From assembly GCA_000004985.1 (NCBI GenBank), contig GG738893.1: DNA of 64,000 bases. The stretch is one strand, 5' to 3'. This document shows positions 5,970-63,983 of the stretch, one piece after another. The position numbers and the translations under genes were made by a program. This DNA is from Naegleria gruberi (Eukaryota). Below the pieces are notes generated by a model that was not told where the DNA came from, ran no database searches, and saw nothing but the letters and a program-made list of their open reading frames with translations. The stretch's first letter is position 1, and every line of letters begins with the position of its first letter.

Positions 5970-6537
5970 GGAAACAAAATTATTAAAAATTGGAACATTG
6001 TGATGCGAACGTTTTACCCTCTTACTTCCATTGTTGTTGTTATTAGCTATTCAGATGATGAGCAGTGTTGCTATTTTCTTGTTGTTGATTTGATGCGGAA
6101 TCTTCTTCTGGTGAGGAACGTTTCATTTTTGCTGTTTTTTTTAGAAATTGTAAGCAGAAGAATTTCCAGAGAAAACTGGTTGTTGGTTTGGCGCCAATTT
6201 GAAAGGAATGTTATGCAATAATATTGAAGATTTAAGAAGATGAAAAAAATTACCTTACATTGCATTGTGTGTGTAGGAATGTGTTTTGGGGATGAGGATT
6301 TTTTTAATTAGAGGAGAGGAAATTCAACAAATAATTGGATGTAGATAATAGTATGAATTAGAATTTTTCAAATCCAACTAAATAATTTGTTCCGAAACAA
6401 AATTATCACACTGAAAGGCTTCCGATATTAATAGAATACCAAACACAATTTTCTTCCCGATATCAGTTGGTGTTTATGTCTACTTTCACGTAGAACAAAA
6501 AAAATGAGTGACTCAGAAAAAGGTCGAGGAAGTTATC

Positions 6538-15218: not shown

Positions 15219-16112
15219 TTATTTTGTCTTGTACTTTTGTACAATATTAAGCAAAGGTTGGATTTTATCTTTCATTCTTTCCAAATAGTTTGGTAATTTG
15301 GAAGAAAACTCTTCTAGTGTGCAATGTCGTGTTTTAGCTGTCAAGAATGTGTTCCTCGTTACAGGTTTAAGGAAAGCGACTGAAGGTAAGGATGTGTGTA
15401 AATTAACCCACTTTTCGTTCATTGTACTGGTGGACTTGCAATTTACTGGAATAATCTTTCTGCCCATCATTATCATTAAGCCAACAGGACATCCTTAATA
15501 GCAACATCTTCGAAAGGAAAATTATATGATTCTCCAAATGATGTATGCTGGTTTATCAATTCGCAAAATCTTTCAACTTCAGATCTATTGAGAGTTAGGC
15601 CATTTTCAAAACTGAAGCCCAAATTCATCCTTATTAAAAAGTAAGTGTGCTCTGACAATTCTTAGAATTTGTATTGCTTTTTGTGAAAATCCAAATTGAT
15701 TCATAGTTGTGTCATCCAAAGTACGTACAATAAATGAACTTCCAGTAAACGGATTATTCATATTTGTTGCCTTTTTGATATCTTCTGCACTCAATCCACA
15801 CGTTTTCAAAAGTTGAACCCATTGCATAGATTGTGGTAGAAATGATTTAATTGTATCAGGGTTGAGTTGCTTGGCATAATTGATAAGATTTTGCCTAAAT
15901 TTTTCTGATACATATTCTTCTTTTTCCTTTGGAACTTCTTTTTGAACCACATCGATAATTAATACATCATCATCTTCCATTGCATCCTCAATTTGAGGTT
16001 GTGTTAATACTAACTCCTCTGGATCGTTAATTGGCTCAGCTTCTCTTTGAACTGATTCTTGCTTACTTGGGGAAGCAAGGTTGGTTTGTGATGTACTTGG
16101 ATGGCTCGACAT
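15219..16112 (-). CDS. Hypothetical protein, 3' exons of the gene above. Three successive ORF segments (15606..16112, 15476..15658, 15219..15476) are linked by short introns.
   Basis: Consecutive minus-strand ORF segments in different frames run directly downstream of the 16063..17928 exon. No recognisable domain, and the splice junctions are not resolved. Confidence 0.3.
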
Positions 16113-17928
16113 TGGATGAGTGATTGCTGTATTGATTGTATTGTTTGGTGGTGGTATAATTGTTTGGGAATGGCAGTGTCTGTTGTAATTTTCCTACACT
16201 ATTAGTTGAGGAAGGTTGAAAATTGTTTTTCAAATTAACTGTTGTCGAATGTGAATTGCTGGTAACTGGTGATGATGTAATTTGGGTGCCCTTTTGAGGT
16301 GTTGATTTAATGTGGGCAGTCTGATTTCTAATAACTGGGCTAGCAGTACTAGTTGAAATCACATCACTTGGAAGAGTACATTTAACTGATGGAGGTGGTG
16401 GTGTACTGCTATTTGATTTTAATTGAGGTGGTGGAGTTTCTGAGTTCATTGGTAGTGTCATATTATTTGATAGAGTTTTTGGAGTTGATGATGAAATATT
16501 CATTGTTGATTTTTTGATATCTGACTTTCTCATGTACATGTCTTTGTTCAAATAAACCAATTCCAACAACTTCCAAACTTGATCCTCCATACCTTCAATA
16601 GTCACATTATGGAGATCAGATGTCTGTTCAACAATTTGATGATTGCCAACACCTACTGCCAAGTTTTGATTTAAACCTGGTTTGGATTTTGGTTCAAGTT
16701 TAACACAGGAATTTTTGACAATAGTTGCATCAAATTGTGTTTCCTCCTTAATGACACACTTGAAAACCTTGGCAATGATTTTTCTCTCTTCTCTAATGCA
16801 ATCTTCTTCATCACAGTCACTTGCTTCTTGTGGAACTTTCATACATAAGGGAACTACATGCCCATCCTCATTAATCATTCCACGTAGAAACATTTCAGTC
16901 TTCCTCTTTAAAACAGCAACCATATTATTGTGTAATTCCTTTCCATCAATATTAAAATAGGTAATCGTATCATGATTTGTATTGTTGATTAATTTCAAAG
17001 TTATTAATTGATCATTGTCTGGATTTTCCAAACAACAAATGATTTTCTTTGTTAAACCATCATCTTTGATGCAACGAGAAGGTACTGGTGAATGTCCTTC
17101 TGAATTAATAGTACACAAATAGATGGAGAAATTATCGTGGATGATGTTATTGCTACTACTAGTACCAGTACTACTTTGATTATTAATAATATTATTTAAA
17201 TGATTACTATTACTAATGATGCTAGTGTTTGTATTCTTATTATTATTAATATTATTAATATTATGATTAGCCTTTGAAATTGTATTTAAATTAATATTAT
17301 TATGCAAGCCACTAGAAGATGCTGCTGCATTGCCATTATTACTAATATTGGAAGCCTTGCAGCTAGCTTTCTTTTCTCTTACTTGATCAATAACTAATTT
17401 CTTTCCTATGAAGGAATGATCCGAGCTTTCGCTTCCAGAATCAAAGTCTTCATATTTTCTCTTCTTCATTCTAACATCTTCTTCTTCTTCACTTGAGGAT
17501 GACAATAAATCACTGAAATCAAGTTGTGGAGCAATCTTCTTCTCAACCCGTCTGATAAGCTGATTATTATACTTCGGATCAGAATTTGAATATTTTTTAA
17601 TTAATTTTAAATTATTGCTGTTATGATGATTTGATGGATTTGATGAGGAAGGTGTTGAAGTGTTAGTAGGGGTGGTGGGTTGTTTTCTTTTTAAAAGTAG
17701 TGGACGAGTGGTAGGTGTGCTTTGGTTCTTCTTGTTTCTTTGTGGAGTACTAGTTTGGCTTGAAGAAGCTTTCGATGATGAAGGAGTTGTTGCTGTGTTC
17801 ATTGATGAAGAGGATGAAGATGATGATACTGTTCTCTTTGGTGTGCCAGAGGAACCACGTGGTGGTTTTGATAGAAACAAGGATTGGTTCTGAATCACCT
17901 TGTCCTTGTCAGAGCGCAAGAATGGCAT
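16063..17928 (-). CDS. Hypothetical protein, large 5' exon (S/T/N-rich low complexity plus an unrecognised central domain)
   Basis: First ATG at 17928 (MPFLRSDKDK...); the track start is TTG. The frame shift relative to the downstream ORF 15606..16112 implies at least one intron. Confidence 0.4.
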   Translation of the reverse strand: MPFLRSDKDKVIQNQSLFLSKPPRGSSGTPKRTVSSSSSSSSMNTATTPSSSKASSSQTSTPQRNKKNQSTPTTRPLLLKRKQPTTPTNTSTPSSSNPSNHHNSNNLKLIKKYSNSDPKYNNQLIRRVEKKIAPQLDFSDLLSSSSEEEEDVRMKKRKYEDFDSGSESSDHSFIGKKLVIDQVREKKASCKASNISNNGNAAASSSGLHNNINLNTISKANHNINNINNNKNTNTSIISNSNHLNNIINNQSSTGTSSSNNIIHDNFSIYLCTINSEGHSPVPSRCIKDDGLTKKIICCLENPDNDQLITLKLINNTNHDTITYFNIDGKELHNNMVAVLKRKTEMFLRGMINEDGHVVPLCMKVPQEASDCDEEDCIREERKIIAKVFKCVIKEETQFDATIVKNSCVKLEPKSKPGLNQNLAVGVGNHQIVEQTSDLHNVTIEGMEDQVWKLLELVYLNKDMYMRKSDIKKSTMNISSSTPKTLSNNMTLPMNSETPPPQLKSNSSTPPPPSVKCTLPSDVISTSTASPVIRNQTAHIKSTPQKGTQITSSPVTSNSHSTTVNLKNNFQPSSTNSVGKLQQTLPFPNNYTTTKQYNQYSNHSSNVEPSKYITNQPCFPK

Positions 17929-18172
17929 TTTTTTTAGTATGATTGAAAACAAACTTGTTTGTGTCCATCAAATTTTTAAGTACTTGATGGAACCAATCAT
18001 TTTTTATTTTAATAAAAGGCACAAGGGGATACGATAAGCTTAATGAGTCAAAGCTTACAGAGCTCTATCGGACACTACTCGCCACCAATACCAATGGTAT
18101 TAACAGAGTTAAAGTGTATAAATAAAGCTGCGTAAATTTTTTATTTTAATAAAACAAGAGATTGAGTTACAT

Positions 18173-35999: not shown

Positions 36000-37017
36000 T
36001 TATTCTTGTTGGTGGAATGGATAGTCAGTGTAACCAGTAGCAAGATCACCACCAGCATAGTAGAATGTTTCTCTATTGTACTTGTTCAATGGTAAATCCT
36101 TTTCCAATCTGTAAGGCAAATCAGGTGTGGAAATAAAGTGACGTCCAAAAGCAACCAAATCAGCATCACCACGTTCCACCATTTCAATAGCAGTTTGTCT
36201 ATTGAAACCACCAGCAGCAATAATTGGGTTCTTGAAGAATTGTCTCAAATGCTTGCAGGCAACTGTTTCAGTTTGTTCAACTTCTTCAGTGCTCTTGGAA
36301 TACATTAATGAAGTACGTGGTTCAACAACGTGCAAGAAGGCCAAATCATACTTGTCAAGAGTCTTGGCAACTTCAGAGAAAGTTTCAGTTGGTGTAGAAT
36401 CGCTCATTTGGTGAAGAGCACCAGATGGACTAATTCTGATACCAACACGATTAGATTCACCATTGACAGCCTTCAAAACTGATTCAACAACTTCACGCAT
36501 AAATCTCAATCTATTTTCAATAGAACCACCATATTCATCAGTTCTCTTATTGACTCCATCTTGAATGAATTGGTCAATCAAGTATCCATTAGCTCCGTGA
36601 ATTTCAACACCATCAAATCCAGCTTCAATAGCATTCTTAGCAGCAGCACCATATTGTTCAACAATGGTCTTGATTTCTTCAACTGATAAACTCTTTGGTG
36701 GTTCAGCAGTAACTTGTTCAAAGGTCTTCAAGTTGAAACATGGAAGATCAGTCATGGCAATATCAGATGATGAAACAGAATCAGCATATCTGACTCTACC
36801 TACGTGCCATAATTGCAAAAAGATGATACCTCCCTTTTGATGGACAGCATCAGTAATCTTCTTCCAGGCCTTAACTTGAGCTTCGGAATAACAACCTGGT
36901 GTGAATGGATAACCTTGTCCTTGTGGTGTAATTTGTGAAGCTTCAGCAATGATTAAACCACCCTTTGAAGCACGTTGATTGTAATAGATAGCACCAACAT
37001 CAGTATGTTCACATTCT
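36000..37017 (-). CDS. Old Yellow Enzyme (NADPH:flavin oxidoreductase / 12-oxophytodienoate reductase-like), paralog 1, exon 2
   Basis: YYNQRASKGGLIIAEASQITPQGQGYPFTPG, WKKITDAVHQKGGIIFLQLWHVGR, GFDGVEIHGANGYLIDQF and RLRFMREVV are OYE hallmarks. Acceptor aataacag sits upstream. Confidence 0.8.
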
Positions 37018-37739: not shown

Positions 37740-38750
37740 TTATTGAAAAGTTGGATAATCGGTATAACCAGTAACAACATCTTTGGAACCATAGAAAGTA
37801 CTTCTGTCATAATGAGTGAGTGGATGACCATTTCTAATTCTTTCAACCAAATCAGGATTAGAAATAAAGTGTCTTCCAAAAGCAATCATATCTGTGACAC
37901 CCTCCTCTGTGGTAATCTTTGCTGTGGCTGGAGTAAAACCACCAGCTGAAATAATTGGAGATCTTGTCAATGGTTTCAATTCCTTGGTTACAACCACAGG
38001 TTTGGATTCAGCTTCGCCATTATCTGAAATTGCTCCACCTGATACTCTTGGTTCTACAAGGTGAATATATGCCAAATCATATTCATCCAATGCCTTGACA
38101 GCTGCTTCAAAGAGTGGTTTTGGATCTGAATCACTAATTTCCAAGAAACATCCACTTGGACTCATACGAATTCCAACACGATCTGATTCATTATCAAATC
38201 CTTCAATACATGCTGAAATAGCTTCACGCATAAATCTCAATCTATTTTCAATAGAACCGCCATATTCATCAGTTCTCTTATTGACTCCATTTTGTAAAAA
38301 TTGGTCAACTAGATAACCATTAGCAGCATGCAATTCCACACCATCGAATCCAGCCAATTTGGCATTTCTAGCAGCTTGCTTATATTGTTCCATAACGACC
38401 TTAATTTCCTCAACAGACAATGCCTTTGGAGTAGTTGGCAATTGTTGTTCTCTGGTTTGCAAATTTGTAGATTTCACATTTTGAATTGGAACTGCAGAAG
38501 AGGAGACATTGTCAGCATAACGTTGTCTACCAACATGCCACAATTGCAAAAAGATGACACCTCCTTTTTGATGGACAGCATCTGTCACCTTTTTCCAAGC
38601 TTTAACTTGAGCTTCGGAATAACAACCTGGAGAACATGGATAACCTTGTCCTTGTGGTGTAATTTGTGAAGCTTCAGCAATGATTAAACCACCTGGTGTG
38701 GCACGTTGAGAGTAGTAAGTAATTGCATGTTCTGTTTGTTCACAATCTCC
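37740..38750 (-). CDS. Old Yellow Enzyme, paralog 2, exon 2
   Basis: ITYYSQRATPGGLIIAEASQITPQGQGYPCSPG, LQLWHVGRQRYAD, GFDGVELHAANGYLVDQF. Acceptor ctattag upstream; stop at 37740. Confidence 0.8.
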   Translation of the reverse strand, partial: GDCEQTEHAITYYSQRATPGGLIIAEASQITPQGQGYPCSPGCYSEAQVKAWKKVTDAVHQKGGVIFLQLWHVGRQRYADNVSSSAVPIQNVKSTNLQTREQQLPTTPKALSVEEIKVVMEQYKQAARNAKLAGFDGVELHAANGYLVDQFLQNGVNKRTDEYGGSIENRLRFMREAISACIEGFDNESDRVGIRMSPSGCFLEISDSDPKPLFEAAVKALDEYDLAYIHLVEPRVSGGAISDNGEAESKPVVVTKELKPLTRSPIISAGGFTPATAKITTEEGVTDMIAFGRHFISNPDLVERIRNGHPLTHYDRSTFYGSKDVVTGYTDYPTFQ

Positions 38751-39402: not shown

Positions 39403-40674
39403 TTAACAACAAGAACTACCACTACATGAGCTTGGTGAACAACTATTGGCAGTTGAAGGTTGTTGAGAAGTTGATGGACCCTTAGAACAATCAAAAGCTC
39501 CATAATGTGTACTCATATCACCAATAATTTGGAAATAAGGACCTAACCAAGATGGTTTGGATAACATACTGGCAGTATTTCCACAAACGAGAACTGGTCT
39601 ATTTCTCTCAAAGACATGTCCAGCATCTAAGGTGTAAGCATGCTTGTAGACATGATCAACTTCTGAGCCTCCTCTATAAATTGCAATTTGTCCATAATCT
39701 TCACATTGTGGTTCCAAATCATTCAATTTGAATAAACGATAAGTGATGGAATAGAATTTGGCATTTCCAAGAATTTCCTTCAATTTCAAATCATGAATAA
39801 CAATTTCACTTCTTGTCAATTCTCTTGGATCATCGAATCCAACCTTCTTACAGAGTGCTAAAAAGTCATTTGTGTACAATGCTCCAGCAATACATTCTCC
39901 AAAGAGTAATTCATGAGAACGAACGTCAGATGGCAAACGACGATCACAATAAACATCAGAAAATACAAACTCTCCTCCAAATCTCAAGCTATTGTAAACA
40001 CCTTTCAAAACGGAAGCCTTATCTGGTGACAAATTCACAACACAATTAGAAATGACAATATCAACAGAATTTTCCTCAATTCCAGCACCTTTCAAATCTT
40101 CAATAAATCCCTTTTTGAATTCCAGAGTTGCCAAATTGTCAGCTCCAAAATTTTCTTGCAACTTTACAACATTGTCCCTTGCAACTTGCAATTGCTCATC
40201 AGTCATATCAACTCCAATAGCTTTTCCTCCCTTTCCACAAAGCATACTTGCCAAATAGACATCTCTTCCACTTCCACAACCCAAATCCAAGACAGTTAAT
40301 CCAGAAATGCCAGCCAATGGCAATGGTGACCCACATCCATAATATTTACTCAATACTTCATCTGGAATTTTAGCAAGTAAAGCTTTCATAATCGGATGAG
40401 GTGCTCCACTTGAAGTGCATGCAGAAGTTTTCAAATCTTTAGTAGTAGACAAGACTTTTCCGTAATATTCCTTCACAGATTCATAAACTGCATTGGAATT
40501 TGTATAGGATACTCCTGTTGTATTTTCACTAATTAAATTATGATTATCCGATGATGATGATGAAGATTGATTGTTGGTTGAACAACATGAAGCAGTTGTT
40601 TGTTTAGGTGTATTTTCCATTGGTGATGATGAAGAAGGAGGACAACAGGATTTTTGGCTTCCACAACAAGACAT
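39403..40674 (-). CDS. Arsenite S-adenosylmethionine methyltransferase (AS3MT/ArsM family), single exon, with Cys-rich N-terminal and C-terminal tails
   Basis: VLDLGCGSGRDVYLASMLCGKGGKAIGVDMTDEQL (SAM-binding motif I), ISNCVVNLSPDK, LRFGGEFVFSDVY, and the conserved Cys pair in YYGCG. The N-terminus MSCCGSQKSCCPP and the C-terminus CSPSSCSGSSCC are unusual. Confidence 0.85.
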   Translation of the reverse strand: MSCCGSQKSCCPPSSSSPMENTPKQTTASCCSTNNQSSSSSSDNHNLISENTTGVSYTNSNAVYESVKEYYGKVLSTTKDLKTSACTSSGAPHPIMKALLAKIPDEVLSKYYGCGSPLPLAGISGLTVLDLGCGSGRDVYLASMLCGKGGKAIGVDMTDEQLQVARDNVVKLQENFGADNLATLEFKKGFIEDLKGAGIEENSVDIVISNCVVNLSPDKASVLKGVYNSLRFGGEFVFSDVYCDRRLPSDVRSHELLFGECIAGALYTNDFLALCKKVGFDDPRELTRSEIVIHDLKLKEILGNAKFYSITYRLFKLNDLEPQCEDYGQIAIYRGGSEVDHVYKHAYTLDAGHVFERNRPVLVCGNTASMLSKPSWLGPYFQIIGDMSTHYGAFDCSKGPSTSQQPSTANSCSPSSCSGSSCC

Positions 40675-43549: not shown

Positions 43550-44509
43550 TTAATAATTGAGAGTTATATTAATATTCACATTAAAGAGAGTAGTACCATC
43601 AAATAAGGCAAATACGAAAGGTCCATCTCTTGATTGTTTGACTGTGAATTGCACAAGTTGATTTCTCTTGGCTTGGATTTGATAATTTGCATTGTTTGGA
43701 TTCAATTGATATAGAGAAGGATTGGTAGAATATAATAATTGATAAGGATATGAATAATTAATGCCTGTTAGTTGGAATTTGACATTGACAGGTGTATTTT
43801 TTGGAATGAAATCTTTCTTGAATTGGATGAGATTGATTGTTTGATCGAAATTCAAGTTACTAAGGGAGAGTGAATTATCTTTCAAGGAATATTCAGTAGT
43901 AAAGTGGGTAAACAATTTTGGAAGAATGGTTAATGAAGCTTTAGAGTTTGAAAATAAACTAAAGTAAACGATTGTGAAATTGTGGATATCTCTAGAGAAT
44001 GAAACAGTTGCATTCAATCCAGAAGATTGGGAAACTGAATTGGCAGGTGTTGGATAACCACTTCTCAAAGAAGCATATACAGTAACTCCATCAAACTGAT
44101 TCTTTCCAATAAACGAAACTTGTGCAATATCATTTTCAGAAACTTGTGGATCCAAACTCATGTAAACATTATTAATCTTTGCTGCATGTACTTCAAACAC
44201 ATGACCATCCACTATCTCACTTGCATCCTCTGGAGTATCCTCCAACAAACATGCAGTTCTATGTCCATTACTTCTCTTGGATGGACACACATAACATGAA
44301 CTAGCACCAAATATTCCAGAAACACTTCCATGTGCACAATCATGTGATTTATCATCACCTGGACAGAATTTTCCTGGTTCACACTGATGACATGGAATAA
44401 AACTAAATTGTTTGTAATATCCAGGACCACATTCACTTGTCAGGATTGAACATGTGAAACATGCAAGGATAACGAACAGTGTTAAAGAAAAACTGAGAGA
44501 TGGTTTCAT
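43550..44509 (-). CDS. Secreted cysteine-rich protein (signal peptide + approx 12-Cys module, then N/S/Q-rich region)
   Basis: MKPSLSFSLTLFVILACFTCSIL signal peptide. The module CGPGYYKQFSFIPCHQCEPGKFCPGDDKSHDC...CYVCPSKRSNGHRTAC is ephrin-receptor-like / TNFR-like. No confident family assignment. Confidence 0.4.
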   Translation of the reverse strand: MKPSLSFSLTLFVILACFTCSILTSECGPGYYKQFSFIPCHQCEPGKFCPGDDKSHDCAHGSVSGIFGASSCYVCPSKRSNGHRTACLLEDTPEDASEIVDGHVFEVHAAKINNVYMSLDPQVSENDIAQVSFIGKNQFDGVTVYASLRSGYPTPANSVSQSSGLNATVSFSRDIHNFTIVYFSLFSNSKASLTILPKLFTHFTTEYSLKDNSLSLSNLNFDQTINLIQFKKDFIPKNTPVNVKFQLTGINYSYPYQLLYSTNPSLYQLNPNNANYQIQAKRNQLVQFTVKQSRDGPFVFALFDGTTLFNVNINITLNY

Positions 44510-45888: not shown

Positions 45889-47445
45889 ATGAAGTTGACA
45901 TCTGCCATTGTCATGGCCATTTTGATGGCTGTGCTTTACGCTACATATGTTACCGCTTCCACAGATTCATTCGATGCATTGACAGATGCCATGGTCGAAG
46001 CAATCTATGCCAGAAGATTACCTAGATCTGGTGGAGGTGCCAGAGGTGGCTCAAGAGGAGGTGCCAGAGGAGGTGCTCGTGGAGGATCAAGAGGTGCTAG
46101 AGGAGGAGCCAGAGGTGGATCTCGTGGTGGTGCCAGAGGTGGTGCTAGAGGAGGTTCTCGTGGTGCCAGAGGTGGATCTAGAGGTGGTGCCAGAGGTGGT
46201 GCTAGAGGAGGAGCCAGAGGAGGATCAAGAGGTGGAAAAGCTGGTAAAGCTGGTAAAGGAGGTAGAGGTGGATCTAGAGGTGGTAAGGCCGGAAAGGGAG
46301 GAAAAGCTGGTAAAGGAGGAAAAGGAAAAGCTGGTAAGGGAGGAAAAGCTGGTAAAGGTGGAAAAGGAAAAGGTGGAAAAGCTGGTAAGGGAGGAAAAGG
46401 TAAAGGAAAAGGAGGTAAGGGTAAAGGTGGTAAAGGAAAAGGTGGAAAGGGAAAGAAGGATAAGAAGGGAAAGAAAGACAAGAAGGGAAAGAAGGATAAG
46501 AAAGATAAGAAGGGAAAGAAGGACAAGAAGGATAAGAATCAACAACAACAAGGTGGAGAACAAGGAGGTCAAGATGGTGGTCAACCAGGAGGTGAACAAC
46601 CACAACAACCAGAACAAGGAGGTGAACAACCACAACAACCTGAACAACCACAAGAACAACCACCAGTTGAACAACCACAACCTGAACAACCACAACAACC
46701 TGAACAAGCTCCAGTTGAACAACCACAACAACCTGAACAACAAGCTCAACCAGAACAAGCTCAACAACCTGAAGTTGCTCAACCACAAGCTCAAGAACAA
46801 CAACCACAAGCTCCAGTTGAACAAACTCAACAACCAGCTCAACAAGCTCCTGTTGAACAACAACCAATTGCTCAACAACCAGCTCAAGAACAAGCTCCAG
46901 TTGCTGCCCAACCTGTTCAAGAACAACCACAAGTTGCTCAACCTCAAGTTCAACAACCTGAAGTAGCTCAACAAGTTGCTCAAGAAGGTCCACAACCAAT
47001 TGCTCAACCTGATCAACCACAACCAGATCAACAAGTTGCTCAACAAAACCCAGACTTCCAACGTGCTCCACAATATGGTGACAAGCAAAGAATTGAATAC
47101 TTGAGAGGAATGATCAAGAAGAATATTTCCCCACAAGTTGCTCAACCAGAACAACAAGTTGCTCAACCTGAAGTAGCTCAACAAGAAGTTCCACAACCAA
47201 TTGCTCAACCTGATCAAGTTGCTCAACCAACTGAACAAACTCAACCAGCTAGAAGAACTAGAAAGTACAACAGAGGTGGTAACAGAAGAGGTACCAGAAG
47301 AAATCAATTCTCTCAAATTCCTGAATTTGGTAGATATTTCTTGGGTAATCAAGCTAAGGCTCAAAATGGTGATAACGATAGAATCAACTTTTTGAGAGGT
47401 TTGATTGATTTGCTCATTGCTCAAACTAAAGCTCAACAAAATTAA
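45889..47445 (+). CDS. Secreted, extremely repetitive low-complexity protein: signal peptide, (GGARGGSRGG)n, (GKAGKGGK)n, (KKDKKG)n, Q/P/E-rich (QPEQPQ, VAQPE)n, basic C-terminal region
   Basis: MKLTSAIVMAILMAVLYATYVTAS signal peptide. There are more than 14 RGG-type decapeptide repeats, then Gly-Lys repeats, then Lys-Asp repeats, then approx 250 aa of Gln/Pro/Glu repeats. Two RI(E/N)(Y/F)LRG(M/L)I motifs occur near the end. Confidence 0.6.
   Translation: MKLTSAIVMAILMAVLYATYVTASTDSFDALTDAMVEAIYARRLPRSGGGARGGSRGGARGGARGGSRGARGGARGGSRGGARGGARGGSRGARGGSRGGARGGARGGARGGSRGGKAGKAGKGGRGGSRGGKAGKGGKAGKGGKGKAGKGGKAGKGGKGKGGKAGKGGKGKGKGGKGKGGKGKGGKGKKDKKGKKDKKGKKDKKDKKGKKDKKDKNQQQQGGEQGGQDGGQPGGEQPQQPEQGGEQPQQPEQPQEQPPVEQPQPEQPQQPEQAPVEQPQQPEQQAQPEQAQQPEVAQPQAQEQQPQAPVEQTQQPAQQAPVEQQPIAQQPAQEQAPVAAQPVQEQPQVAQPQVQQPEVAQQVAQEGPQPIAQPDQPQPDQQVAQQNPDFQRAPQYGDKQRIEYLRGMIKKNISPQVAQPEQQVAQPEVAQQEVPQPIAQPDQVAQPTEQTQPARRTRKYNRGGNRRGTRRNQFSQIPEFGRYFLGNQAKAQNGDNDRINFLRGLIDLLIAQTKAQQN
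46020..47230 (+). repeat. Coding tandem repeat array (30-nt GGARGGSRGG units, GKAGKGG units, KKDKK units, QPEQ-type units)
   Basis: ggtgccagaggtggtgctagaggaggatcaaga-type periodicity is directly visible. This region generates many spurious overlapping ORFs on both strands. Confidence 0.7.
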
Positions 47446-47813: not shown

Positions 47814-47886
47814 CTCCCCCTGGTGGGCTCGAACCACCGACCTGCAGATTAACAGTCTGACGCTCTACCGACTGAGCTAAGGGGGA
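47814..47886 (-). tRNA. tRNA-Asn (anticodon GUU), 73 nt, no encoded CCA
   Basis: Minus-strand sequence TCCCCCTTAGCTCAGTCGGTAGAGCGTCAGACTGTTAATCTGCAGGTCGGTGGTTCGAGCCCACCAGGGGGAG. It folds as a 7-bp acceptor stem, D-arm GCTC/GAGC, anticodon loop CTGTTAA and T-arm GGTGG/TTCGAGC/CCACC. Confidence 0.85.
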
Positions 47887-49296: not shown

Positions 49297-50663
49297 ATGA
49301 CTTCTATTTTTAATTTTTTCAAGAGTGGAGGAGCCTATTCAAAGAGTAGTACTGGAGCAGTGACGAATAGTAGTAGTGAATCTTCATCTTCTTCTGATAC
49401 TAGTAATAATAATAGTAATAGTAATAATGGAACTCCTTTGAGTAATCCTCCGAGTGTTGATAATAACAATGTAAATAATGTATCACCGAATGTAAACACC
49501 ACCACCAATGAGCAAAAATCCATGACAAGTCAGATTGTTGAGGGAAAGAGCATGATTTTGTCAATTCAACCTGGAGAGAGACCACTTTTTGATTCTGTCG
49601 ATTTGGCAGAATTGATCAAGTTGAAGGAACATTTACAATACAAACCAAGTGTTTTGAATTTGATTGCTGTTTATCAGGCAGAGATTCAAAAACACGTCGA
49701 GTATGGTGTTAAAAAATCAAACAAGAAGGTGCAAAACTATCAGATTGAGCCAGCTCCAACAAACACAAAATATGTCTATCTCACATCATCTGGTTTGCCG
49801 GGAGTATTCTGTACAAATAATGATATGATTGATTATAGTCACTATCAAGCTATTTCGAAAGGAAGATGTGTTTCTCATTCTTTCGATTCACAAGAGTTAT
49901 CGAAAATTGAGGAAGTATTGAAAAAGCAAACCTCAATTTCAGAAAATTCAACAATTGTAAATAAGCGAAATGAATTGGAAAATTTAGAAAAGCAATACAC
50001 TCGATTGATGAAAGAAAAGGATAAATTATTGATCGATAGAGCAGCTGTTCTTTCACTTGAGGAATTGGCCATAATTGAAGCAGAGGAAGGTAGCATCAGA
50101 AGAACCAATGGAGAAGATAATGATGAATGGGAAATTGAAAGAAAGAAGAGAATTATAGAAAATGAAAGAAAATTGATTGAAAAAAGATTGGTCGAAGCTA
50201 AAAAGCACAAAAATGTTCGCTTCTACTGCAAGGGAGAATTAGACTATCTCACCAAATGGAATGACCACTTTGTCAAGACGAACAGTGAGACCACACCAAA
50301 AGGCGTAGACCAATTGCTGAGATACAATTTCAGTCCAACCAATGTCTTTGATTTAGGTGCAGAAGAGATTCACTTTAGATTTTGTGAATCCCAACTTCAT
50401 AGACTTGCCTCCTCTCCAATGTATGGCTCTTCTTATCCAACTGCCAGGGTCGTAAAGGTTGACTACATTGTCAATCCGGTTATTATGAAGAGATTTAATG
50501 CATGTAAGCAGGAATTGGCTGAAAAGCATGGCTTTATGCTTGAAAGTATGAAGCCATTGCTCTTATTCCATGGTACATCAGATGCCAATATGGAGAATAT
50601 CTTAAAGACCAATTTTTTATTGAACAAAATTGGAAGTACAACAGATATGGGATATTATGGAAA
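49297..50663 (+). CDS. PARP catalytic-domain protein, exon 1 (N-terminal S/N-rich region, coiled coil, start of ADP-ribosyltransferase domain)
   Basis: ATG at 49297. The C-terminal part LLLFHGTSDANMENILKTNF...GYYGK carries the H-G-T/S motif. Donor AA|GTAAGT at 50664. Confidence 0.6.
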
Positions 50664-50714
50664 GTAAGTTTCTTATTCTTATTTTGGATTTATTGACCTT
50701 TTTCTTAATAATAG

Positions 50715-51022: not shown

Positions 51023-52884
51023 TTATGCAAAGAAATATTCCAATTTCACACTATTCTTTCCATTTACACAATTCAATTGAGAATGATCAATGAATGGTCT
51101 AGTCAACACTTGACCATTCAATACTACTTTAAGAATTTTTGGAGAATCTGGCTTAAAGTTATAAGATTCAATAGACAAGAAACAACCATTCTCTCTCTCC
51201 ACCTGAATACTCTCAAACAATGGAGATCCAACAAAATATTCACTAGAACCAGCTCTTGGATACAAACCAAGTGCTGACCACACAAACCATGCACTCATCG
51301 TTCCATAATCGTTATTTCCAGGCAAACCATCTGGATTCACACTGTATAATCTATCCATCATTTGTCTCACATAGTATTGAGTCAAATCTGCTCTGTCCAC
51401 ATAGTTAAACAAGTACATGCTCATTAGATCATGTTCATTTCCTCCCCAATAGAATGGATTTGGCAATACGGTGAATGGAAAGTCGAAGGAATCTTTTGCG
51501 AATTGTTCCAGTGCAGCAGTGAACTTTTCCTTTGATCCAAACAGGGAAATTAATCGTGGAATATCGTGTGGAACAAAGAATCTATAATGCCAGGCATCAC
51601 CTTCGACATTATAGATTATCGACTGTCCCATCCATCGGCAAATGTTAATTCTGGACAATTCCACTTTCCAGAAATTGATTTTGGACAGAAGAATTGTTCC
51701 TTCTCGTGCCACACATTCTTATAGAATTGAGAACGAGCAGTAAAGTTCAAATAGTCTGCAGTTTCGTTAAGGACCTTAGCAACGGAGGCAATGCATGAAT
51801 CTTCGTAGGAATAATCTAGAGTGAGAACTGCTCCAACTTGGGCAGATTCTTCTGGGACAAAACCAAGAGAATTATATTGAGCTGGATTGACTCTTCCAAC
51901 ATAATTGACTGGTTCATTAGATGTCTTTTTCATTGCTTGATACGTCTTTTGCATATTAATCTTTGAACTTCTCAATTGACCTTTTAGGAATGCTTCTGTA
52001 ATGATAACAATTGCATGATTTCCAACCATTGAACCAGTTTCTCCATTACAGAAAGGCCACTTTGGAAGGAAACCAACTTGATCATTGACTCTTATCAATG
52101 GTATGTGAAATATCCAAAATGATAAAAGATTCTTTCGATTGATCGTTGAAAGTATATCTGTGAATTCCAGAATAATAGCCACTGGTCAATTCTTCATCAA
52201 TGTCATATCTTTCCAAAGTAGTTCTGAAATAACCTGGTTGAACAAATTGAGTTTCCTTATTATAGGCCCTTACTTTTTTGTCTTTCAACAAGAAATCATA
52301 ACTCAATTCTCCCTTATATAGACAAACTGGCATTATTCCAATATTTCCCATATCTGGAATTCCTGCACCTACCAAACGCATATGTGAATGTAATCATCTG
52401 GATAGTAGAAACCACCTGGATGCTCAAAAGAAATCTCCAAATCGAAAGTATTAGTAGTATCAGGTCCAACTCTAATCATTCCATAAGGAGTTTGAGCCAT
52501 TGGACTCATGGTTCCAGAACCAAAGCCCTTGCCAGTTCCAATGAATGGATTCACGTATTTCATATTCTTGTTGCTGTCCTTCTTGAATTTTCTTCCACTC
52601 TTTCCGTTATGTTGTTGTTGAGTTTGTCCAAGATTGTCTGGATGGCCATGGACACGATTTTCCATATCTTGATGATCATCATGATGCATAATATTAATTG
52701 ATGGTTGCTTCATCATTTGTTGATGTGAATAAAACCTCATATTTTGTCTTGGTTGTTGCTGTTGATGATTCATCATTTGTATCATTCTTGATTCTACCAA
52801 CGTGATGATAACAATCAAAATGATCAATAGCATCTGCAGAAGAACATTCGTACGAATCGAACCATCTCTCATCTTCCTATTCAT
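51023..52884 (-). pseudogene. Glycoside hydrolase family 92 (alpha-1,2-mannosidase-like) gene with N-terminal signal peptide and His/Gln-rich region, interrupted by three frameshifts
   Basis: GH92 signatures: NPFIGTGKGFGSGTMSPMAQTPYGMIRVGPDT, NVEGDAWHYRFFVPHD, DYGTMSAWFVWSALGLYP. The protein is spread over 4 overlapping minus-strand ORFs (52369..52884, 52082..52381, 51616..52182, 51023..51712). Homology continues directly across the overlaps, so there is no room for introns. Confidence 0.6.
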
Positions 52885-62048: not shown

Positions 62049-63983
62049 TTATGAAATTAACTTTTTGAGAACTGCTGCTTTTGTAAAGCCACCTGTCAAA
62101 ATGCCAGTTGTGGTGCAGGCACTAGCTGCTTTGACGTATTCAGTTCCCTCCTTGACATATTCATTGGCCTGTTGAATGTTCTTTTCGATAATGTTGAGTC
62201 CTTGACCTTGTTCTCTAATGAGGAAATTCATTTGTTCGTACATTTCATGAAGTTCAGCGTAATCCTTTTCCACAGCTTCCAACTCTGCCTTTGTTTCAAG
62301 GGCAATCTTCTTTTCCATTTCAATAGTTTCTGCATCGGCAGTACTGAGAATGAATTGAATCTTTTGTTGTTGATCTTGCTCCTTCTTGTGTTGGAGTTCC
62401 ATTTGCTTCTCTTCGTACTTTCTCACCAAGTGATCTGGATTGGTTGCACCCGAATCTCTAGCTCCAGCCATGATGGCTTGCATGAATTGCTTCTTTTTCA
62501 TAACTTGTTCCTCCTTCTTTCTGGCATTTCTATCCACCTTACCTTCTTTTGCTGTGGCAACGGTAGGTGAAGGAATTTCAAGAGATTTCTCTTTAGATTT
62601 CTTGGAAGTTTGTTGAGTGGTAGAAGCTCCTGTTTGATATAATACATGGTCCATTAACTCGTCAAATTCCAACATTCTTTCACTTCTCTTCTTTTTGTGA
62701 TGTCTTTCAATCTTTTGGCGTTTCTTTAAAAAGTTTTGGTATTGCTTGTCAATGTTCTCGAATTGTATTTTAAGTTTTGTTAGTTTCATAATGGTTAATT
62801 TACAGTTAGTGACCTGAGGTAATTTCTTGCTCAGTTTTGGAATAAACTTGTCCAGTAATTCCCTCTTCTTCTCAGCTTTTGAAATACATGATTGAATGGA
62901 ATTTCTAATCTTTTCAGTGTCGTTTTCAAAGTGTTCCCACTTGCTCAAGAGAGCTTCCAGTTTGTTAACCTTCTCTCCAAACATTTGAATATCCATAGCC
63001 ATAACATAGAGCAATTTGAATTGTTGTTTGGTTTTGGTAAATTCCTTCTCGCCTTCTATTTGAATAAGATTGGGTCCACTATTCGAAAACAAGTGATCCT
63101 CTCCCATGCTTGTCGTATTGGCTGATTGAAAATTCACATCATCAAAATTGAAACTCGATTCCAGAGTTGGTGTGCCGAGTGGATCAGCACCAAACCATCT
63201 GGATTTTCTCTTTTGAGCTGCATCATTGTCGAGAGGACATGCATGCTCTTCCTCTTCCTGTGGTGGTAAATCGAAATGTGGTTTGTGATCTGATTTCTTC
63301 TTTGGATGATGATCACCATTGCTTGCTGTCGTCAATGCAACAGCACCAGGTACAGGTGAAGAAGTATTACTCTTATCAGGTGATTCATTTCTCTCAGCAC
63401 CACCTTTCTTCTTCTTCTTTCCAATACCCAATTTAGAAGCCTCCTTCTCTGTAGCTCCAAAATTCAAAGGTTTCACATCCACCTGAATACTTCCACAAAT
63501 TCCATCAGTAAAAATCGAACTCCTTGTCAAGTCAGCAATTGAAGGAGCTTCCAAATCCAACTCCAACGAAGTAATATTTCCAAAATTAAATTGATTCAAA
63601 TGATCAATCGTACAAAATCCAATCGTCTCTCCATTCCTCTCCTTATCATGAACATAAATTTGTATGATATCCCGATTCGGATTCTCCAAGCCTAACAAGA
63701 AGGTCTGATTAAAGGAGGGATTTAAATTATTTCTCTTAGCCTTGGTCCTCTGTTTATAAACTCCATTCACCTTGATCATCAGATAGGGAGAAACCTCCAC
63801 TTGATTGGTCTGCTGGAGCGACGAGGCATCAATCGAGACTTTTTCTATGGTTAATTCGAGCTGGAAAAATTCGGCGGGAGAATTTCCGTTAGCATTGTTG
63901 GCGCCATTTTTTATTTGCGTTAGAAAATTCTGTTCACCCTCGCTGATGAGTCCGTGAAGGTGGTTGGTTCGACTCTTGAACAT
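62049..63983 (-). CDS. C2-domain + syntaxin-like (Qa) SNARE-motif protein
   Basis: The N-terminal C2-like beta-sandwich region is YLMIKVNGVYKQRTKAKRNNLNPSFNQTF...IYVHDKERNGETIGFC. The C-terminal SNARE heptad region is IREQGQGLNIIEKNIQQANEYVKEGTEYVKAA, with a zero-layer Gln. The short tail lacks a clear TM helix. ATG at 63983. Confidence 0.5.
   Translation of the reverse strand: MFKSRTNHLHGLISEGEQNFLTQIKNGANNANGNSPAEFFQLELTIEKVSIDASSLQQTNQVEVSPYLMIKVNGVYKQRTKAKRNNLNPSFNQTFLLGLENPNRDIIQIYVHDKERNGETIGFCTIDHLNQFNFGNITSLELDLEAPSIADLTRSSIFTDGICGSIQVDVKPLNFGATEKEASKLGIGKKKKKGGAERNESPDKSNTSSPVPGAVALTTASNGDHHPKKKSDHKPHFDLPPQEEEEHACPLDNDAAQKRKSRWFGADPLGTPTLESSFNFDDVNFQSANTTSMGEDHLFSNSGPNLIQIEGEKEFTKTKQQFKLLYVMAMDIQMFGEKVNKLEALLSKWEHFENDTEKIRNSIQSCISKAEKKRELLDKFIPKLSKKLPQVTNCKLTIMKLTKLKIQFENIDKQYQNFLKKRQKIERHHKKKRSERMLEFDELMDHVLYQTGASTTQQTSKKSKEKSLEIPSPTVATAKEGKVDRNARKKEEQVMKKKQFMQAIMAGARDSGATNPDHLVRKYEEKQMELQHKKEQDQQQKIQFILSTADAETIEMEKKIALETKAELEAVEKDYAELHEMYEQMNFLIREQGQGLNIIEKNIQQANEYVKEGTEYVKAASACTTTGILTGGFTKAAVLKKLIS

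What the first reader, a model, noticed from the sequence alone, without database searches (positions are those of the whole stretch)
45889..47445. Secreted protein built of four successive simple-repeat blocks (RGG decapeptides, Gly-Lys, Lys-Asp, Gln-Pro-Glu) with local GC enrichment
After a clean signal peptide, more than 90 percent of the 518 aa are perfect or near-perfect short repeats arranged in charge-segregated blocks: polycationic RGG/GK, then zwitterionic KD, then polyanionic QPE. The protein ends with two RIxxLRGxI motifs and a basic tail. This architecture (extracellular, block polyampholyte) suggests a matrix/spore-coat, biomineralisation-like or coacervating role. The underlying DNA is a conspicuous tandem array that is noticeably less AT-rich than its surroundings.
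Basis: seen in the sequence. Interest (0 to 1): 0.6.

Follow-up and report, generated by a model that had tools for sequence, protein, structure and literature searches.

The report
Unannotated secreted charge-block repeat protein, Naegleria
This is a real Naegleria gruberi gene that no protein database lists, encoding a probably secreted, disordered protein with a long positively charged Gly/Arg/Lys half and a negatively charged Gln/Pro/Glu half; it has no relatives anywhere, so it is a curious orphan whose role is untested.

Summary
The 518-aa ORF at 45889-47445(+) is confirmed. The window is Naegleria gruberi NEG-M nuclear DNA.

- **Coding:** it is coding in this frame. Codon log-odds are 381 bits against 79 or less in the other frames. 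Repeat copies differ by 21 synonymous and only 4 replacement codon changes. Codon bias is stronger than in all 22 neighbouring ORFs, also in the non-repeat parts.
- **GC rise:** GC of 0.48 against about 0.33 comes from amino-acid composition alone. GC3 is 0.16, the lowest in the window.
- **Secretion:** the N-terminus passes rule-based signal-peptide checks and is the only hydrophobic segment. SignalP was not available.
- **Blocks:** [A/S]RGG, GK and KKD/KKG together carry +56. A degenerate Q/P/E block carries -23. A short helical module is duplicated. The protein has no Cys, Trp or His.
RGG units are tetrapeptides in a 23-aa super-repeat, not decapeptides. The KD block is cationic, not zwitterionic. 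About 80% of residues are low complexity, not more than 90% perfect repeats.
- **Relatives:** none found in 5.8 billion clustered proteins, 1.84 billion representatives, metagenome and viral contigs, Pfam, NCBIfam or PDB. Not even a fragment of this ORF is in the collection.

Best guess, at low confidence, is a self-associating extracellular polyelectrolyte such as a cyst-wall, coat or adhesive matrix. This is a modest curiosity.

The parts
45889..47445 (+). Complete intron-less ORF, 518 codons plus TAA. It is an orphan, and neither it nor any fragment of it is in the protein collection searched.
   Evidence: ORF listing and sequence. Coding log-odds 381 bits with 0 stops, against 79 bits or less in the other five frames. 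The A-rich start context resembles that of neighbouring genes. The exact product and any fragment of it are absent from the 15-billion-protein collection.
45889..45960 (+). aa 1-24 MKLTSAIVMAILMAVLYATYVTAS: signal-peptide-like N-terminus. A type II signal anchor is not excluded.
   Evidence: Kyte-Doolittle 11-residue maximum is 3.11 and the 19-residue maximum is 2.06. It is the only hydrophobic segment of the protein, and small residues sit at -3/-1. AF2 models a helix at 2-21. Coding score is +15.9 bits in frame, negative in the other frames and upstream. SignalP was not available.
45961..46026 (+). aa 25-46 TDSFDALTDAMVEAIYARRLPR: short acidic predicted helix ending in RR/PR.
   Evidence: AF2 helix at 26-42 with low confidence. 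Composition. The dibasic RR is at aa 42.
46027..46233 (+). aa 47-115: [A/S]RGG block with 17 Arg and 34 Gly. Three 23-aa super-repeats.
   Evidence: TRF period 69 nt, 2.9 copies. Amino-acid autocorrelation is 0.91 at lag 23. In register there are 21 synonymous and 4 replacement codon differences, including AGA/CGT. The only sequence resemblance is to GAR tails of fibrillarin, GAR1 and METTL14, at E >= 1e-3.
46234..46446 (+). aa 116-186: Gly-Lys block (GKAGKGGK-type), 23 K and 38 G. Lys is mostly AAA.
   Evidence: TRF periods 9/18/42/51 nt. Composition and codons.
46447..46536 (+). aa 187-216: KKD/KKG block with 20 K, 6 D and 4 G, net +14. Lys is mostly AAG.
   Evidence: TRF periods 9/18/27 nt at 77-88% matches. 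Composition and codon use.
46537..47073 (+). aa 217-395: degenerate Gln/Pro/Glu(/Ala/Val) block with 70 Q, 36 P and 20 E, net -23.
   Evidence: TRF periods 18-60 nt at 61-77% matches. Best amino-acid autocorrelation is only 0.34. All 70 Gln codons are CAA and all 20 Glu codons are GAA. Modelled as coil with pLDDT of 50 or below (40-50 by ten-residue blocks).
47074..47148 (+). aa 396-420: copy 1 of the helical module (GDKQRIEYLRGMIKKN). The motif RIEYLRGMI is at 47089-47115. The single N-glycosylation sequon NIS is at aa 412.
   Evidence: Internal duplication score 57, against 24 +/- 4.8 in shuffles with a maximum of 42. Reciprocal tblastn hits between the two copies. AF2 helix at 398-413. Sequon.
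47149..47253 (+). aa 421-455: second, short Q/P/E/V/A block, net -4.
   Evidence: Composition. TRF periods 15-21 nt. This stretch produced the only hit in the exhaustive search, and that hit was purely compositional.
47254..47442 (+). aa 456-518: Arg-rich stretch (RTRKYNRGGNRRGTRR) followed by copy 2 of the helical module (GDNDRINFLRGLIDLLIAQ). The motif RINFLRGLI is at 47380-47406.
   Evidence: Composition gives net +9. Duplication. AF2 helix at 495-517. Coding score is +29 bits in frame, against -10 and -97 in the others.

Best explanation
This is a genuine, intron-less, lineage-restricted gene of Naegleria gruberi. Neither it nor any fragment of it appears in the protein databases searched.

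**Product.** The protein is about 52 kDa after removal of aa 1-24, free of Cys, Trp and His, and almost entirely disordered.
- An N-terminal signal peptide takes it into the ER and outward.
- A 170-residue polycation follows ([A/S]RGG, then GK, then KKD/KKG; net +56).
- A roughly 240-residue Gln/Pro/Glu-rich polyanion comes next. It is interrupted and then followed by two copies of a short amphipathic-helix module.

**Most likely mechanism (inferred).** Outside the cell it acts as a self-associating polyelectrolyte.
- The cationic block of one chain pairs with the anionic block of others, giving complex coacervation or a gel.
- The two helices add oligomerisation points.
- The excess positive charge binds polyanionic partners such as wall polysaccharides or surfaces.
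- Together these would build or cement an extracellular layer, such as a cyst wall or pore plug, a surface coat or an adhesive.

**Shown:** gene reality, selection on the protein sequence, composition, charge blocks, and ER-targeting features by rule. **Inferred:** actual secretion, self-association, and the place and time of action.
For: - **Organism and native origin.** Neighbouring ORFs are exact matches to N. gruberi proteins on a 337-kb scaffold. Codon use and GC3 are host-like.
- **Real coding gene.**
  - Frame-specific log-odds are 381 bits with no stops.
  - In the RGG super-repeat there are 21 synonymous and 4 replacement differences, where 31% synonymous is expected.
  - Mean log2 RSCU is 0.62 overall and 0.50 in the 134 non-repeat codons. 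Both exceed all 22 background ORFs, whose maximum is 0.475.
  - The coding signal begins at the first ATG, and the start context is A-rich like that of the neighbours.
- **ER targeting.** There is a single N-terminal hydrophobic segment with a legal -3/-1 cleavage site. An acidic stretch follows it, so the flanking charge difference favours translocation of the C-terminal side.
- **Disorder.** Mean pLDDT is 45.9, with only four short helices.
- **Charge blocks.** Values are +56, -23, +3, -4 and +9. SCD lies about 10 SD below shuffles.
- **Oligomerisation candidates.** The duplicated helical module is significant.
- **Precedent for the kind.** 48% of the proteins secreted during the C. elegans molt, when the pharyngeal cuticle is built, are predicted disordered, and many belong to families with phase-separating sequence properties (PMC9629831).
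Against: - There are no expression, proteomic or localisation data.
- SignalP or DeepTMHMM could not be run.
- No homologue exists, so conservation cannot support function.
- Even a metagenome that contains a 95-98% identical Naegleria relative yielded no copy. Those contigs are short, however.
- The protein is net +41, so it is far from charge-balanced. That argues against simple self-coacervation without an anionic partner.
- Repeat codons are not independent, because they are copied by slippage. Codon-bias statistics in the repeats are therefore inflated.
- RGG, KKD and acidic tracts are, from general knowledge, typical of nucleolar proteins rather than secreted ones.
Confidence: 0.4

Rival explanations
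1. It is a secreted or phagosomal polycationic weapon with a built-in safety block. The 170-aa Arg/Lys/Gly polycation agglutinates or kills bacterial prey or competitors by condensing with their polyanions ('polycation poisoning'). The anionic Q/P/E region masks the charge during transport, like the anionic propieces of cationic antimicrobial peptides. It would be removed by cleavage at basic sites.
For: - A +56 block sits directly after the signal peptide, followed by an anionic block.
- Dibasic or RxxR-like sites lie at the block borders: RR42, and RRTRK and RRGTRR at 455-471.
- Naegleria is a bacterivore (general knowledge).
Against: - The polycation is far longer than typical antimicrobial peptides.
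- It has no amphipathic or hydrophobic face.
- The anionic block (about -27) neutralises only half of the positive charge.
- There is no regular processing site between repeat units, and no homology to any AMP family.
Confidence: 0.15
2. It is a membrane-anchored surface coat. The N-terminal hydrophobic segment is not cleaved and acts as a type II signal anchor. The protein then forms an extended, charged brush on the plasma membrane, working like the acidic Pro/Glu-repeat procyclin coat of trypanosomes.
For: - The hydrophobic stretch can be read as 19 residues long with mean hydropathy 2.06, which is borderline between a signal peptide and an anchor.
- The Pro-rich Q/P/E block would be extended.
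- The flanking charges place the bulk of the protein outside.
Against: - The strongly hydrophobic core is only 11 residues long, and a canonical small-residue cleavage motif follows it.
- There is no C-terminal hydrophobic GPI signal.
- The repeats are not EP or GPEET, and there is no sequence similarity to procyclins.
Confidence: 0.15
3. It is not secreted but is a nucleolar or RNA-binding-type low-complexity protein. Either translation starts at the internal Met35, or the N-terminus merely tethers it to a membrane facing the cytosol. RGG, GK, KKD and acidic tracts would then act as in fibrillarin, GAR1, Nop56/58 and nucleolin.
For: - The only database resemblances are to GAR domains of Nop1/fibrillarin, GAR1 and METTL14.
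- KKD/KKE tails and acidic tracts are typical of nucleolar proteins (general knowledge).
- An in-frame ATG exists at codon 35.
Against: - The coding signal and the GC step begin at the first ATG (+15.9 bits for codons 1-34, negative upstream).
- The first ATG has the A-rich context of other genes.
- The flanking charge distribution predicts lumenal or extracellular topology.
- There is no RNA-binding or catalytic domain.
- The GAR hits are weak and compositional (E 7e-4 to 0.02).
Confidence: 0.1
4. It is a non-functional or very young ORF created by microsatellite-like expansion, or an assembly artefact. It would be open only because the repeats lack stop codons.
For: - Four other ORFs of 173-404 aa are open across the same repeats in other frames and on the other strand.
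- There is no homologue anywhere, and no entry for it in any source of the collection searched.
- Repeat arrays are prone to copy-number errors.
Against: - Only frame +0 has coding statistics (381 bits).
- Differences between repeat copies are overwhelmingly synonymous.
- The non-repeat N- and C-terminal parts also score as coding, with strong codon bias.
- The repeats are imperfect (61-95% matches), so assembly is not ambiguous.
- The duplicated C-terminal module has diverged while keeping its motif.
Confidence: 0.07

Closest known systems
GAR (glycine-arginine-rich, RGG) domains of fibrillarin/Nop1, GAR1, nucleolin and METTL14
   Same: The [A/S]RGG tetrapeptide array of aa 47-115 is nearly the same repeat as in fibrillarin N-termini (P0007). 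These domains gave the only sequence hits.
   Different: Those are nuclear proteins without signal peptides, and their RGG tail is attached to a folded catalytic or RNA-binding domain. Here there is a signal-peptide-like N-terminus and no folded domain. The similarity is compositional (E 7e-4 to 0.02).
Secreted intrinsically disordered, phase-separating matrix proteins (C. elegans pharyngeal-cuticle families such as IDPA, IDPB and IDPC; PMC9629831)
   Same: Both have a signal peptide plus a low-complexity disordered chain. Both are lineage-specific families, with a presumed role as extracellular material.
   Different: There is no sequence relationship. The nematode families are not built as polycation-then-polyanion blocks. 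Expression during wall building is shown for them and is unknown here.
Oppositely charged adhesive/cement protein pairs that form complex coacervates (sandcastle-worm cement proteins; recalled from general knowledge, not tested)
   Same: Secreted Gly/Lys-rich polycations are combined with polyanions to give a condensed extracellular material.
   Different: In the worm the two charges sit on separate proteins and the anion is phosphoserine. Here both charges are in one chain, the anion is Glu/Asp in a Gln/Pro context, and the net charge is +41.
Procyclins (EP/GPEET) of Trypanosoma brucei, a fellow discoban (general knowledge)
   Same: Both have a signal peptide and an extended acidic Pro/Glu-rich repeat exposed outside the cell.
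   Different: Procyclins have perfect EP or GPEET repeats and a C-terminal GPI signal. Here the block is degenerate and Q-dominated, there is no C-terminal hydrophobic tail, and a large polycation precedes it.
Cationic antimicrobial peptide precursors with anionic propieces / 'polycation poisoning' (PMC10028949)
   Same: Both have a signal peptide, a strongly cationic segment and a charge-masking anionic segment in one precursor.
   Different: The cationic segment here is 170 aa of simple repeats without an amphipathic structure. The order is cation then anion. No regular processing sites and no homology were found.
Plant cell-wall glycine-rich proteins (class I GRPs) and transglutaminase substrates of cornified envelopes (loricrin, involucrin, SPRR) (general knowledge)
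   Same: Both have a signal peptide plus (GGX)n-type glycine-rich repeats. The abundance of both Lys (50) and Gln (91) would suit Gln-Lys cross-linking into an insoluble layer.
   Different: There is no homology and no Tyr- or Cys-rich cross-linking motifs. A literature search on Naegleria and transglutaminase turned up no paper on transglutaminase cross-linking in Naegleria (titles and abstracts only). The idea is purely speculative.

Membership tests
GAR-domain nucleolar RNP proteins (fibrillarin PF01269, GAR1) | RGG/RGA repeat array | tested here: met
   There are 17 [A/S]RG(G) units at aa 47-115. Weak hits to Nop1 and GAR1 tails.
GAR-domain nucleolar RNP proteins (fibrillarin PF01269, GAR1) | Folded methyltransferase or GAR1 core domain adjoining the repeat | tested here: not met
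   There is no Pfam or NCBIfam family at E <= 0.01 or E <= 1 respectively. AF2 shows no folded domain.
GAR-domain nucleolar RNP proteins (fibrillarin PF01269, GAR1) | Nuclear protein without ER signal | tested here: not met
   A hydrophobic, signal-peptide-like N-terminus is encoded from the first ATG. This is rule-based, and localisation was not measured.
Procyclin-type acidic repeat surface coat | Perfect EP or GPEET repeats | tested here: not met
   The Q/P/E block is degenerate, with Q more abundant than P and P more than E, and autocorrelation of 0.34 or less.
Procyclin-type acidic repeat surface coat | C-terminal hydrophobic GPI-addition signal | tested here: not met
   All top hydropathy windows are at residues 1-8. 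The C-terminus is ...LIAQTKAQQN.
Procyclin-type acidic repeat surface coat | N-terminal signal peptide | tested here: inconclusive
   It passes the n/h/c-region and -3/-1 rules. No trained predictor was available.
Cereal prolamin/gliadin-type Q/P-rich secreted storage proteins | Conserved Cys-containing prolamin domain and a Pfam match | tested here: not met
   There are zero Cys and no Pfam hit.
Kex2-processed repeat proteins / multi-copy peptide precursors | Repeat units regularly separated by KR/RR processing sites | tested here: not met
   There are no dibasic sites inside the RGG or Q/P/E blocks. Only KK occurs, inside the KKD block, with scattered RR sites at aa 42 and 455-471.
Secreted phase-separating matrix IDPs (functional class, not a homology family) | Signal peptide plus a predominantly disordered low-complexity chain | tested here: met
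   The signal peptide is called by rule only.
Secreted phase-separating matrix IDPs (functional class, not a homology family) | Demonstrated secretion, expression during wall or matrix building, and condensation in vitro | not testable with these tools
   This needs RNA-seq or proteomics and recombinant protein.

The most novel reading that the evidence does not exclude
This would be a single-chain extracellular 'polycation-polyanion' material protein. It would be the first RGG/GAR-type repeat domain shown to work outside a cell in a protist. It would condense by inter-chain pairing of its +56 and -27 blocks, possibly fixed by Gln-Lys cross-links. The result would be a salt- or pH-responsive cyst-wall or pore-plug matrix. 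Alternatively, it would act as a charge-masked polycationic weapon against bacterial prey. The gene has been invisible because repeat masking kept it out of the annotation. In addition, trypsin would cut the cationic half into very short peptides and leave the K/R-poor anionic block as one very large peptide.
Probability: 0.15. Interest if true: 0.6.

Novelty: new member of a known kind. Interest (0 to 1): 0.3.

Why it matters
If the product is made and exported, it adds a missing component to the Naegleria secretome or cyst wall, about which little turned up in my literature searches. It would also give a natural one-chain model of block-polyampholyte condensation with an RGG domain in an extracellular setting.

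It has a practical side too. This is a clear example of a well-supported gene that no searched database holds, presumably because low-complexity DNA was masked. Naegleria proteomic or transcriptomic studies that rely on the reference gene set cannot see it. None of this touches a long-standing open question, and lineage-specific repetitive secreted orphans are common in protists.

Tried and rejected
**Homology searches**
- Full-length homology search: only two compositional hits, a fibrillarin GAR tail and an ABC ATPase.
- Search with the concatenated non-repeat N- and C-terminal parts: 16 candidates, none scoring.
- Exhaustive phmmer of aa 385-518 against 1.84 billion representatives: one hit. 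It is a Cys-rich repeat protein that matches only the Q/E/V-rich stretch, so it was rejected as compositional.
- Back-translated scans of JGI metagenome contigs and IMG/VR viral contigs: pattern matches, but none confirmed. This gives no support for a viral or environmental relative.
- Pfam, NCBIfam and PDB sequence searches: nothing beyond GAR tails.
- No paralogue of the N-terminus or the helical module exists elsewhere in the window.

**Annotation status**
- Exact-sequence look-ups of the ORF returned no record.
- I tried to read the reference gene models around the locus through the neighbouring proteins. The position index does not hold this genome. 'Unannotated' therefore rests on the absence of any identical fragment in the protein collection.
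- The ENA metagenome contig carrying a 98%-identical neighbour is only 1677 nt long and stops short of the target.

**Other checks**
- Genomic context: the neighbours are unrelated housekeeping genes, namely RNase T2, a metallophosphoesterase, an arsenite methyltransferase, old yellow enzymes, GH92 and a PARP-like protein.
- Rfam finds only the tRNA.
- My kappa charge-patterning calculation was only marginally above shuffles (0.226 against 0.174 +/- 0.019) and used an approximate maximum. I rely on SCD instead.
- The NNC against NNT codon preference was not significant (p = 0.08).
- Literature searches on the Naegleria cyst wall, secretome, transglutaminase and encystment gave nothing about such a protein.
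- A GC-island or foreign-DNA explanation is rejected. GC3 is the lowest in the window and codon use is host-like.
Full report
**Where the window comes from.** Three neighbouring ORFs are exact matches to predicted proteins of Naegleria gruberi NEG-M on a 337-kb scaffold:
- 43550-44509(-) is XP_002673104 / D2VS43.
- 39403-40674(-) is D2VS40, an arsenite methyltransferase.
- 62049-63983(-) is D2VS50, a C2-domain protein.

The window is therefore nuclear DNA of a free-living heterolobosean amoeboflagellate. Background GC is 0.29-0.40 per kb.

At the protein level the layout is as follows:

| Residues | Content | Net charge |
|---|---|---|
| 1-24 | Hydrophobic N-terminus | +1 |
| 25-46 | Short acidic helix ending in RRLPR | -1 |
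| 47-115 | [A/S]RGG tetrapeptides in three 23-aa super-repeats (autocorrelation 0.91 at lag 23) | +17 |
| 116-186 | Gly-Lys repeats | +25 |
| 187-216 | KKD/KKG repeats (20 K, 6 D) | +14 |
| 217-395 | Degenerate Gln/Pro/Glu/Ala/Val block (best autocorrelation only 0.34) | -23 |
| 396-420 | First helical module, containing RIEYLRGMI | +3 |
| 421-455 | Second short Q/P/E block | -4 |
| 456-518 | Arg-rich stretch, then second helical module, containing RINFLRGLI | +9 |

- 80% of residues lie in low-entropy windows, against 0-29% in 22 other ORFs of the window.
- Charge segregation is far beyond chance. Sequence charge decoration is 4.8, against 17.7 +/- 1.3 in shuffles.
- The two C-terminal modules are a true internal duplication. 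The local alignment score is 57, against 24 +/- 4.8 in shuffles with a maximum of 42 in 500. Reciprocal tblastn hits confirm it.

- 'RGG decapeptides' is wrong.
- The 'zwitterionic KD' block is in fact polycationic.
- The '>90% perfect or near-perfect repeats' figure is too high.
- The 'basic tail' actually precedes the last motif.

The whole protein is strongly cationic. Net charge is +41. After removal of aa 1-24 the calculated pI is 10.4 and the mass about 51.6 kDa. There are no Cys, Trp or His.

**The GC enrichment.** The 46001-47000 bin has GC 0.479, the highest in the window. The excess is confined to codon positions 1 and 2. GC by position is 0.70/1.00/0.12 in the RGG block and 0.97/0.38/0.02 in the Q/P/E block. 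GC3 of the whole ORF is 0.16, lower than in all 22 comparison ORFs, which range from 0.22 to 0.39. The enrichment is a consequence of Gly, Arg, Ala, Pro and Gln codons. It is not a compositional island and not foreign DNA.

**Is it a gene?** Repeats that lack stop codons keep several frames open. Four other ORFs of 173-404 aa overlap on both strands, so ORF length alone proves nothing. Five other lines of evidence do:
- A codon-usage log-odds score trained on 22 long ORFs of the window gives 381 bits and no stops for this frame. The other five frames score -102 to +79 bits with 5-52 stops.
- In the 23-aa register of the RGG block, 25 of 46 codon pairs differ. Of these, 21 are synonymous and 4 are replacements. 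Only 31% of random single-base changes would be synonymous, and the differences include AGA/CGT arginine switches. The amino-acid sequence is therefore under purifying selection.
- Codon bias (mean log2 RSCU) is 0.62 for the ORF and 0.50 for the 134 non-repeat codons alone. Both exceed every comparison ORF (0.13-0.475). In the non-repeat part, Arg is AGA 15/15, Gln is CAA 10/10, and Lys is AAG/AAA 6/1. The bias is therefore not only inherited through repeat copying, and it is consistent with substantial expression. That last step is inference.
- The coding signal and a GC step (0.27 to 0.42) begin at the first ATG. Codons 1-34 score +15.9 bits in frame, and upstream DNA is non-positive in all three frames.
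- The start context, aaaaaaaaacgaaaATG, resembles that of the neighbouring genes.

A stop lies four codons upstream of the ATG. I see no need for introns.

**Targeting.** SignalP was not available. By rule the N-terminus qualifies as a signal peptide:
- It has a basic n-region (Lys2).
- It has an 11-residue strongly hydrophobic core, AIVMAILMAVL, with a Kyte-Doolittle mean of up to 3.1.
- It has a polar c-region with small residues at -3/-1 (V-T-A|S or T-A-S|T).
- No other hydrophobic segment exists anywhere in the protein.
- The segment is followed by acidic residues, while its N-terminal side is basic. By the charge-difference rule (general knowledge) this places the rest of the chain in the ER lumen or outside.

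Read generously, the hydrophobic run is 19 residues long. An uncleaved type II anchor therefore cannot be excluded. There is no C-terminal GPI-type tail and no KDEL/HDEL signal. One N-glycosylation sequon, NIS, lies at aa 412.

**Structure.** AlphaFold2 without an alignment gives mean pLDDT 45.9. Helices appear at 2-21, 26-42, 57-75, 398-413 and 495-517, plus a few shorter ones, and the rest is coil. The confidence is low. The model serves only to show that nothing folds into a domain and that the two RIxxLRGxI modules are helix-prone. Their hydrophobic residues fall on one face (I, Y/F-L, M/L-I), which suits oligomerisation. That is inference.

**Relatives.** None were found.
- The full-length search scored 8000 candidates and returned only a fibrillarin GAR tail and an ABC ATPase, at E of about 7-9e-4.
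- A query made of the non-repeat N- and C-terminal parts found nothing.
- An exhaustive phmmer of aa 385-518 against 1.84 billion representatives gave a single hit. It matches only the Q/E/V-rich stretch and is an unrelated Cys-rich repeat protein.
- Scans of JGI metagenome contigs and viral contigs were negative.
- Pfam and NCBIfam gave no family.
- PDB sequences gave only GAR tails of Nop1, GAR1 and METTL14, at E 1e-3 to 0.02.

The collection holds the N. gruberi reference proteome, since the neighbours are in it. Even a 100%-identical fragment of this ORF is missing. I therefore conclude that the gene is not annotated in the reference set, most likely because the low-complexity DNA was masked. 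I could not read the gene models directly.

A metagenome assembly (ERZ929261) contains a Naegleria whose proteins are 95-98% identical to the neighbours. It yielded no copy of the target, but its contigs are under 3 kb.

**Surroundings.** Upstream lies a 1.4-kb spacer shared with the divergently oriented D2VS43 gene. That gene is itself signal-peptide-like and Cys-rich, with no Pfam match. Downstream, 370 nt after the stop, is tRNA-Asn(GTT) on the minus strand. The further neighbours give no functional clue: RNase T2, a metallophosphoesterase, a methyltransferase, two old-yellow-enzyme paralogues, a PARP-like ORF, a GH92 mannosidase and others.

**What it most likely does.**

*Shown:* this is a selected, probably well-expressed, ER-targeted, Cys-free disordered protein with a +56 block, a block of about -27, and two helix-prone modules.

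*Inferred:* it is exported and behaves as a self-associating polyelectrolyte.
- Cationic blocks pair with anionic blocks of other chains.
- The helices add cross-links.
- The surplus positive charge binds anionic partners.
- This gives a condensed extracellular layer, of which a cyst wall or pore plug, a surface coat or an adhesive are the candidates in Naegleria.

Secreted disordered, phase-separating families that contribute to an extracellular matrix are documented for the C. elegans pharyngeal cuticle (PMC9629831). The abundance of both Lys (50) and Gln (91) would also allow Gln-Lys cross-linking, but I found no evidence on this in Naegleria. I put this composite reading at about 0.4.

*Rivals:*
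- A charge-masked polycationic weapon against bacteria, as in 'polycation poisoning' (PMC10028949): 0.15.
- A type II anchored surface brush that works like procyclin: 0.15.
- A non-secreted nucleolar-type RGG/KKD protein using Met35: 0.1. weakens this.
- A non-functional repeat-born ORF or an artefact: 0.07. weaken this.

**Comparison with known families.** It works like secreted low-complexity matrix proteins and polyelectrolyte adhesives. It is not a member of any homology family.
- It fails the defining features of GAR-domain RNP proteins, since it has no core domain and does have an ER signal.
- It fails those of procyclins, since it has no EP/GPEET repeats and no GPI signal.
- It fails those of prolamins, since it has no Cys domain.
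- It fails those of Kex2-processed repeat precursors, since it has no regular dibasic spacers.

**Verdict.** This is a real gene, absent from the databases searched and without relatives, with an unusual but not unprecedented architecture. Novelty: a new member of the broad, well-known kind 'lineage-specific secreted repetitive disordered proteins'. Interest is modest at 0.3. It would rise if the protein proved to be an extracellular RGG-type condensate or a weapon.

Noticed in passing
47814-47886 (-): tRNA-Asn (anticodon GTT), 370 nt downstream of the target's stop codon. It is the only RNA gene found in the window by ARAGORN and Rfam.
   Followed up: yes
36000-36818 (-) and 37740-38588 (-): Two adjacent ORFs both match the C-terminal ~250 positions of the NADH:flavin oxidoreductase (old yellow enzyme, PF00724) model. 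They look like tandem paralogues, each probably with a separate upstream exon.
   Followed up: partly
51023-52884 (-): A glycosyl hydrolase family 92 (alpha-mannosidase-type) gene is split over three ORFs (51023-51712, 51616-52182, 52369-52884). This could reflect introns or frameshifts.
   Followed up: no
49297-50667 (+): An ORF with an Asn/Ser-rich N-terminus has a sub-threshold match to the PARP catalytic domain (20.4 bits against a cut-off of 26.7). The match ends at the ORF end, so the gene probably continues in a further exon.
   Followed up: no
43550-44509 (-): The divergent upstream neighbour (D2VS43, 'predicted protein') also has a signal-peptide-like N-terminus followed by a Cys-rich stretch (CGPGYY...CHQCEPGKFCPG). 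It has no Pfam family. A second secretory-pathway orphan therefore sits next to the target.
   Followed up: partly
L001 (ENA metagenome ERZ929261, contig k127_51906, 1677 nt): A public metagenome assembly contains a Naegleria whose proteins are 98% (D2VS43) and 95% (D2VS40) identical to those of the window. A close relative of N. gruberi NEG-M is thus present in that sample, and it could be mined at read level for the target locus.
   Followed up: partly
45986-46966 (+), 46005-46526 (-), 46225-47439 (-), 46274-47071 (-): Four long ORFs (173-404 aa) overlap the target in other frames and on the other strand. They encode E/V/L-, P/L/F- and L/S/W-rich nonsense and have poor codon scores. They are by-products of stop-poor repeats and could mislead automatic gene callers.
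   Followed up: yes
46234-46536 (+): The two Lys-rich blocks use opposite Lys codons: AAA 18/23 in the GK block and AAG 18/20 in the KKD block. This suggests each block grew by separate amplification of its own DNA seed unit.
   Followed up: partly
6508-10638 (+) and 16063-17952 (-): These two other long ORFs have 22% and 29% of residues in low-entropy windows, the highest fractions after the target. They were not examined further.
   Followed up: no
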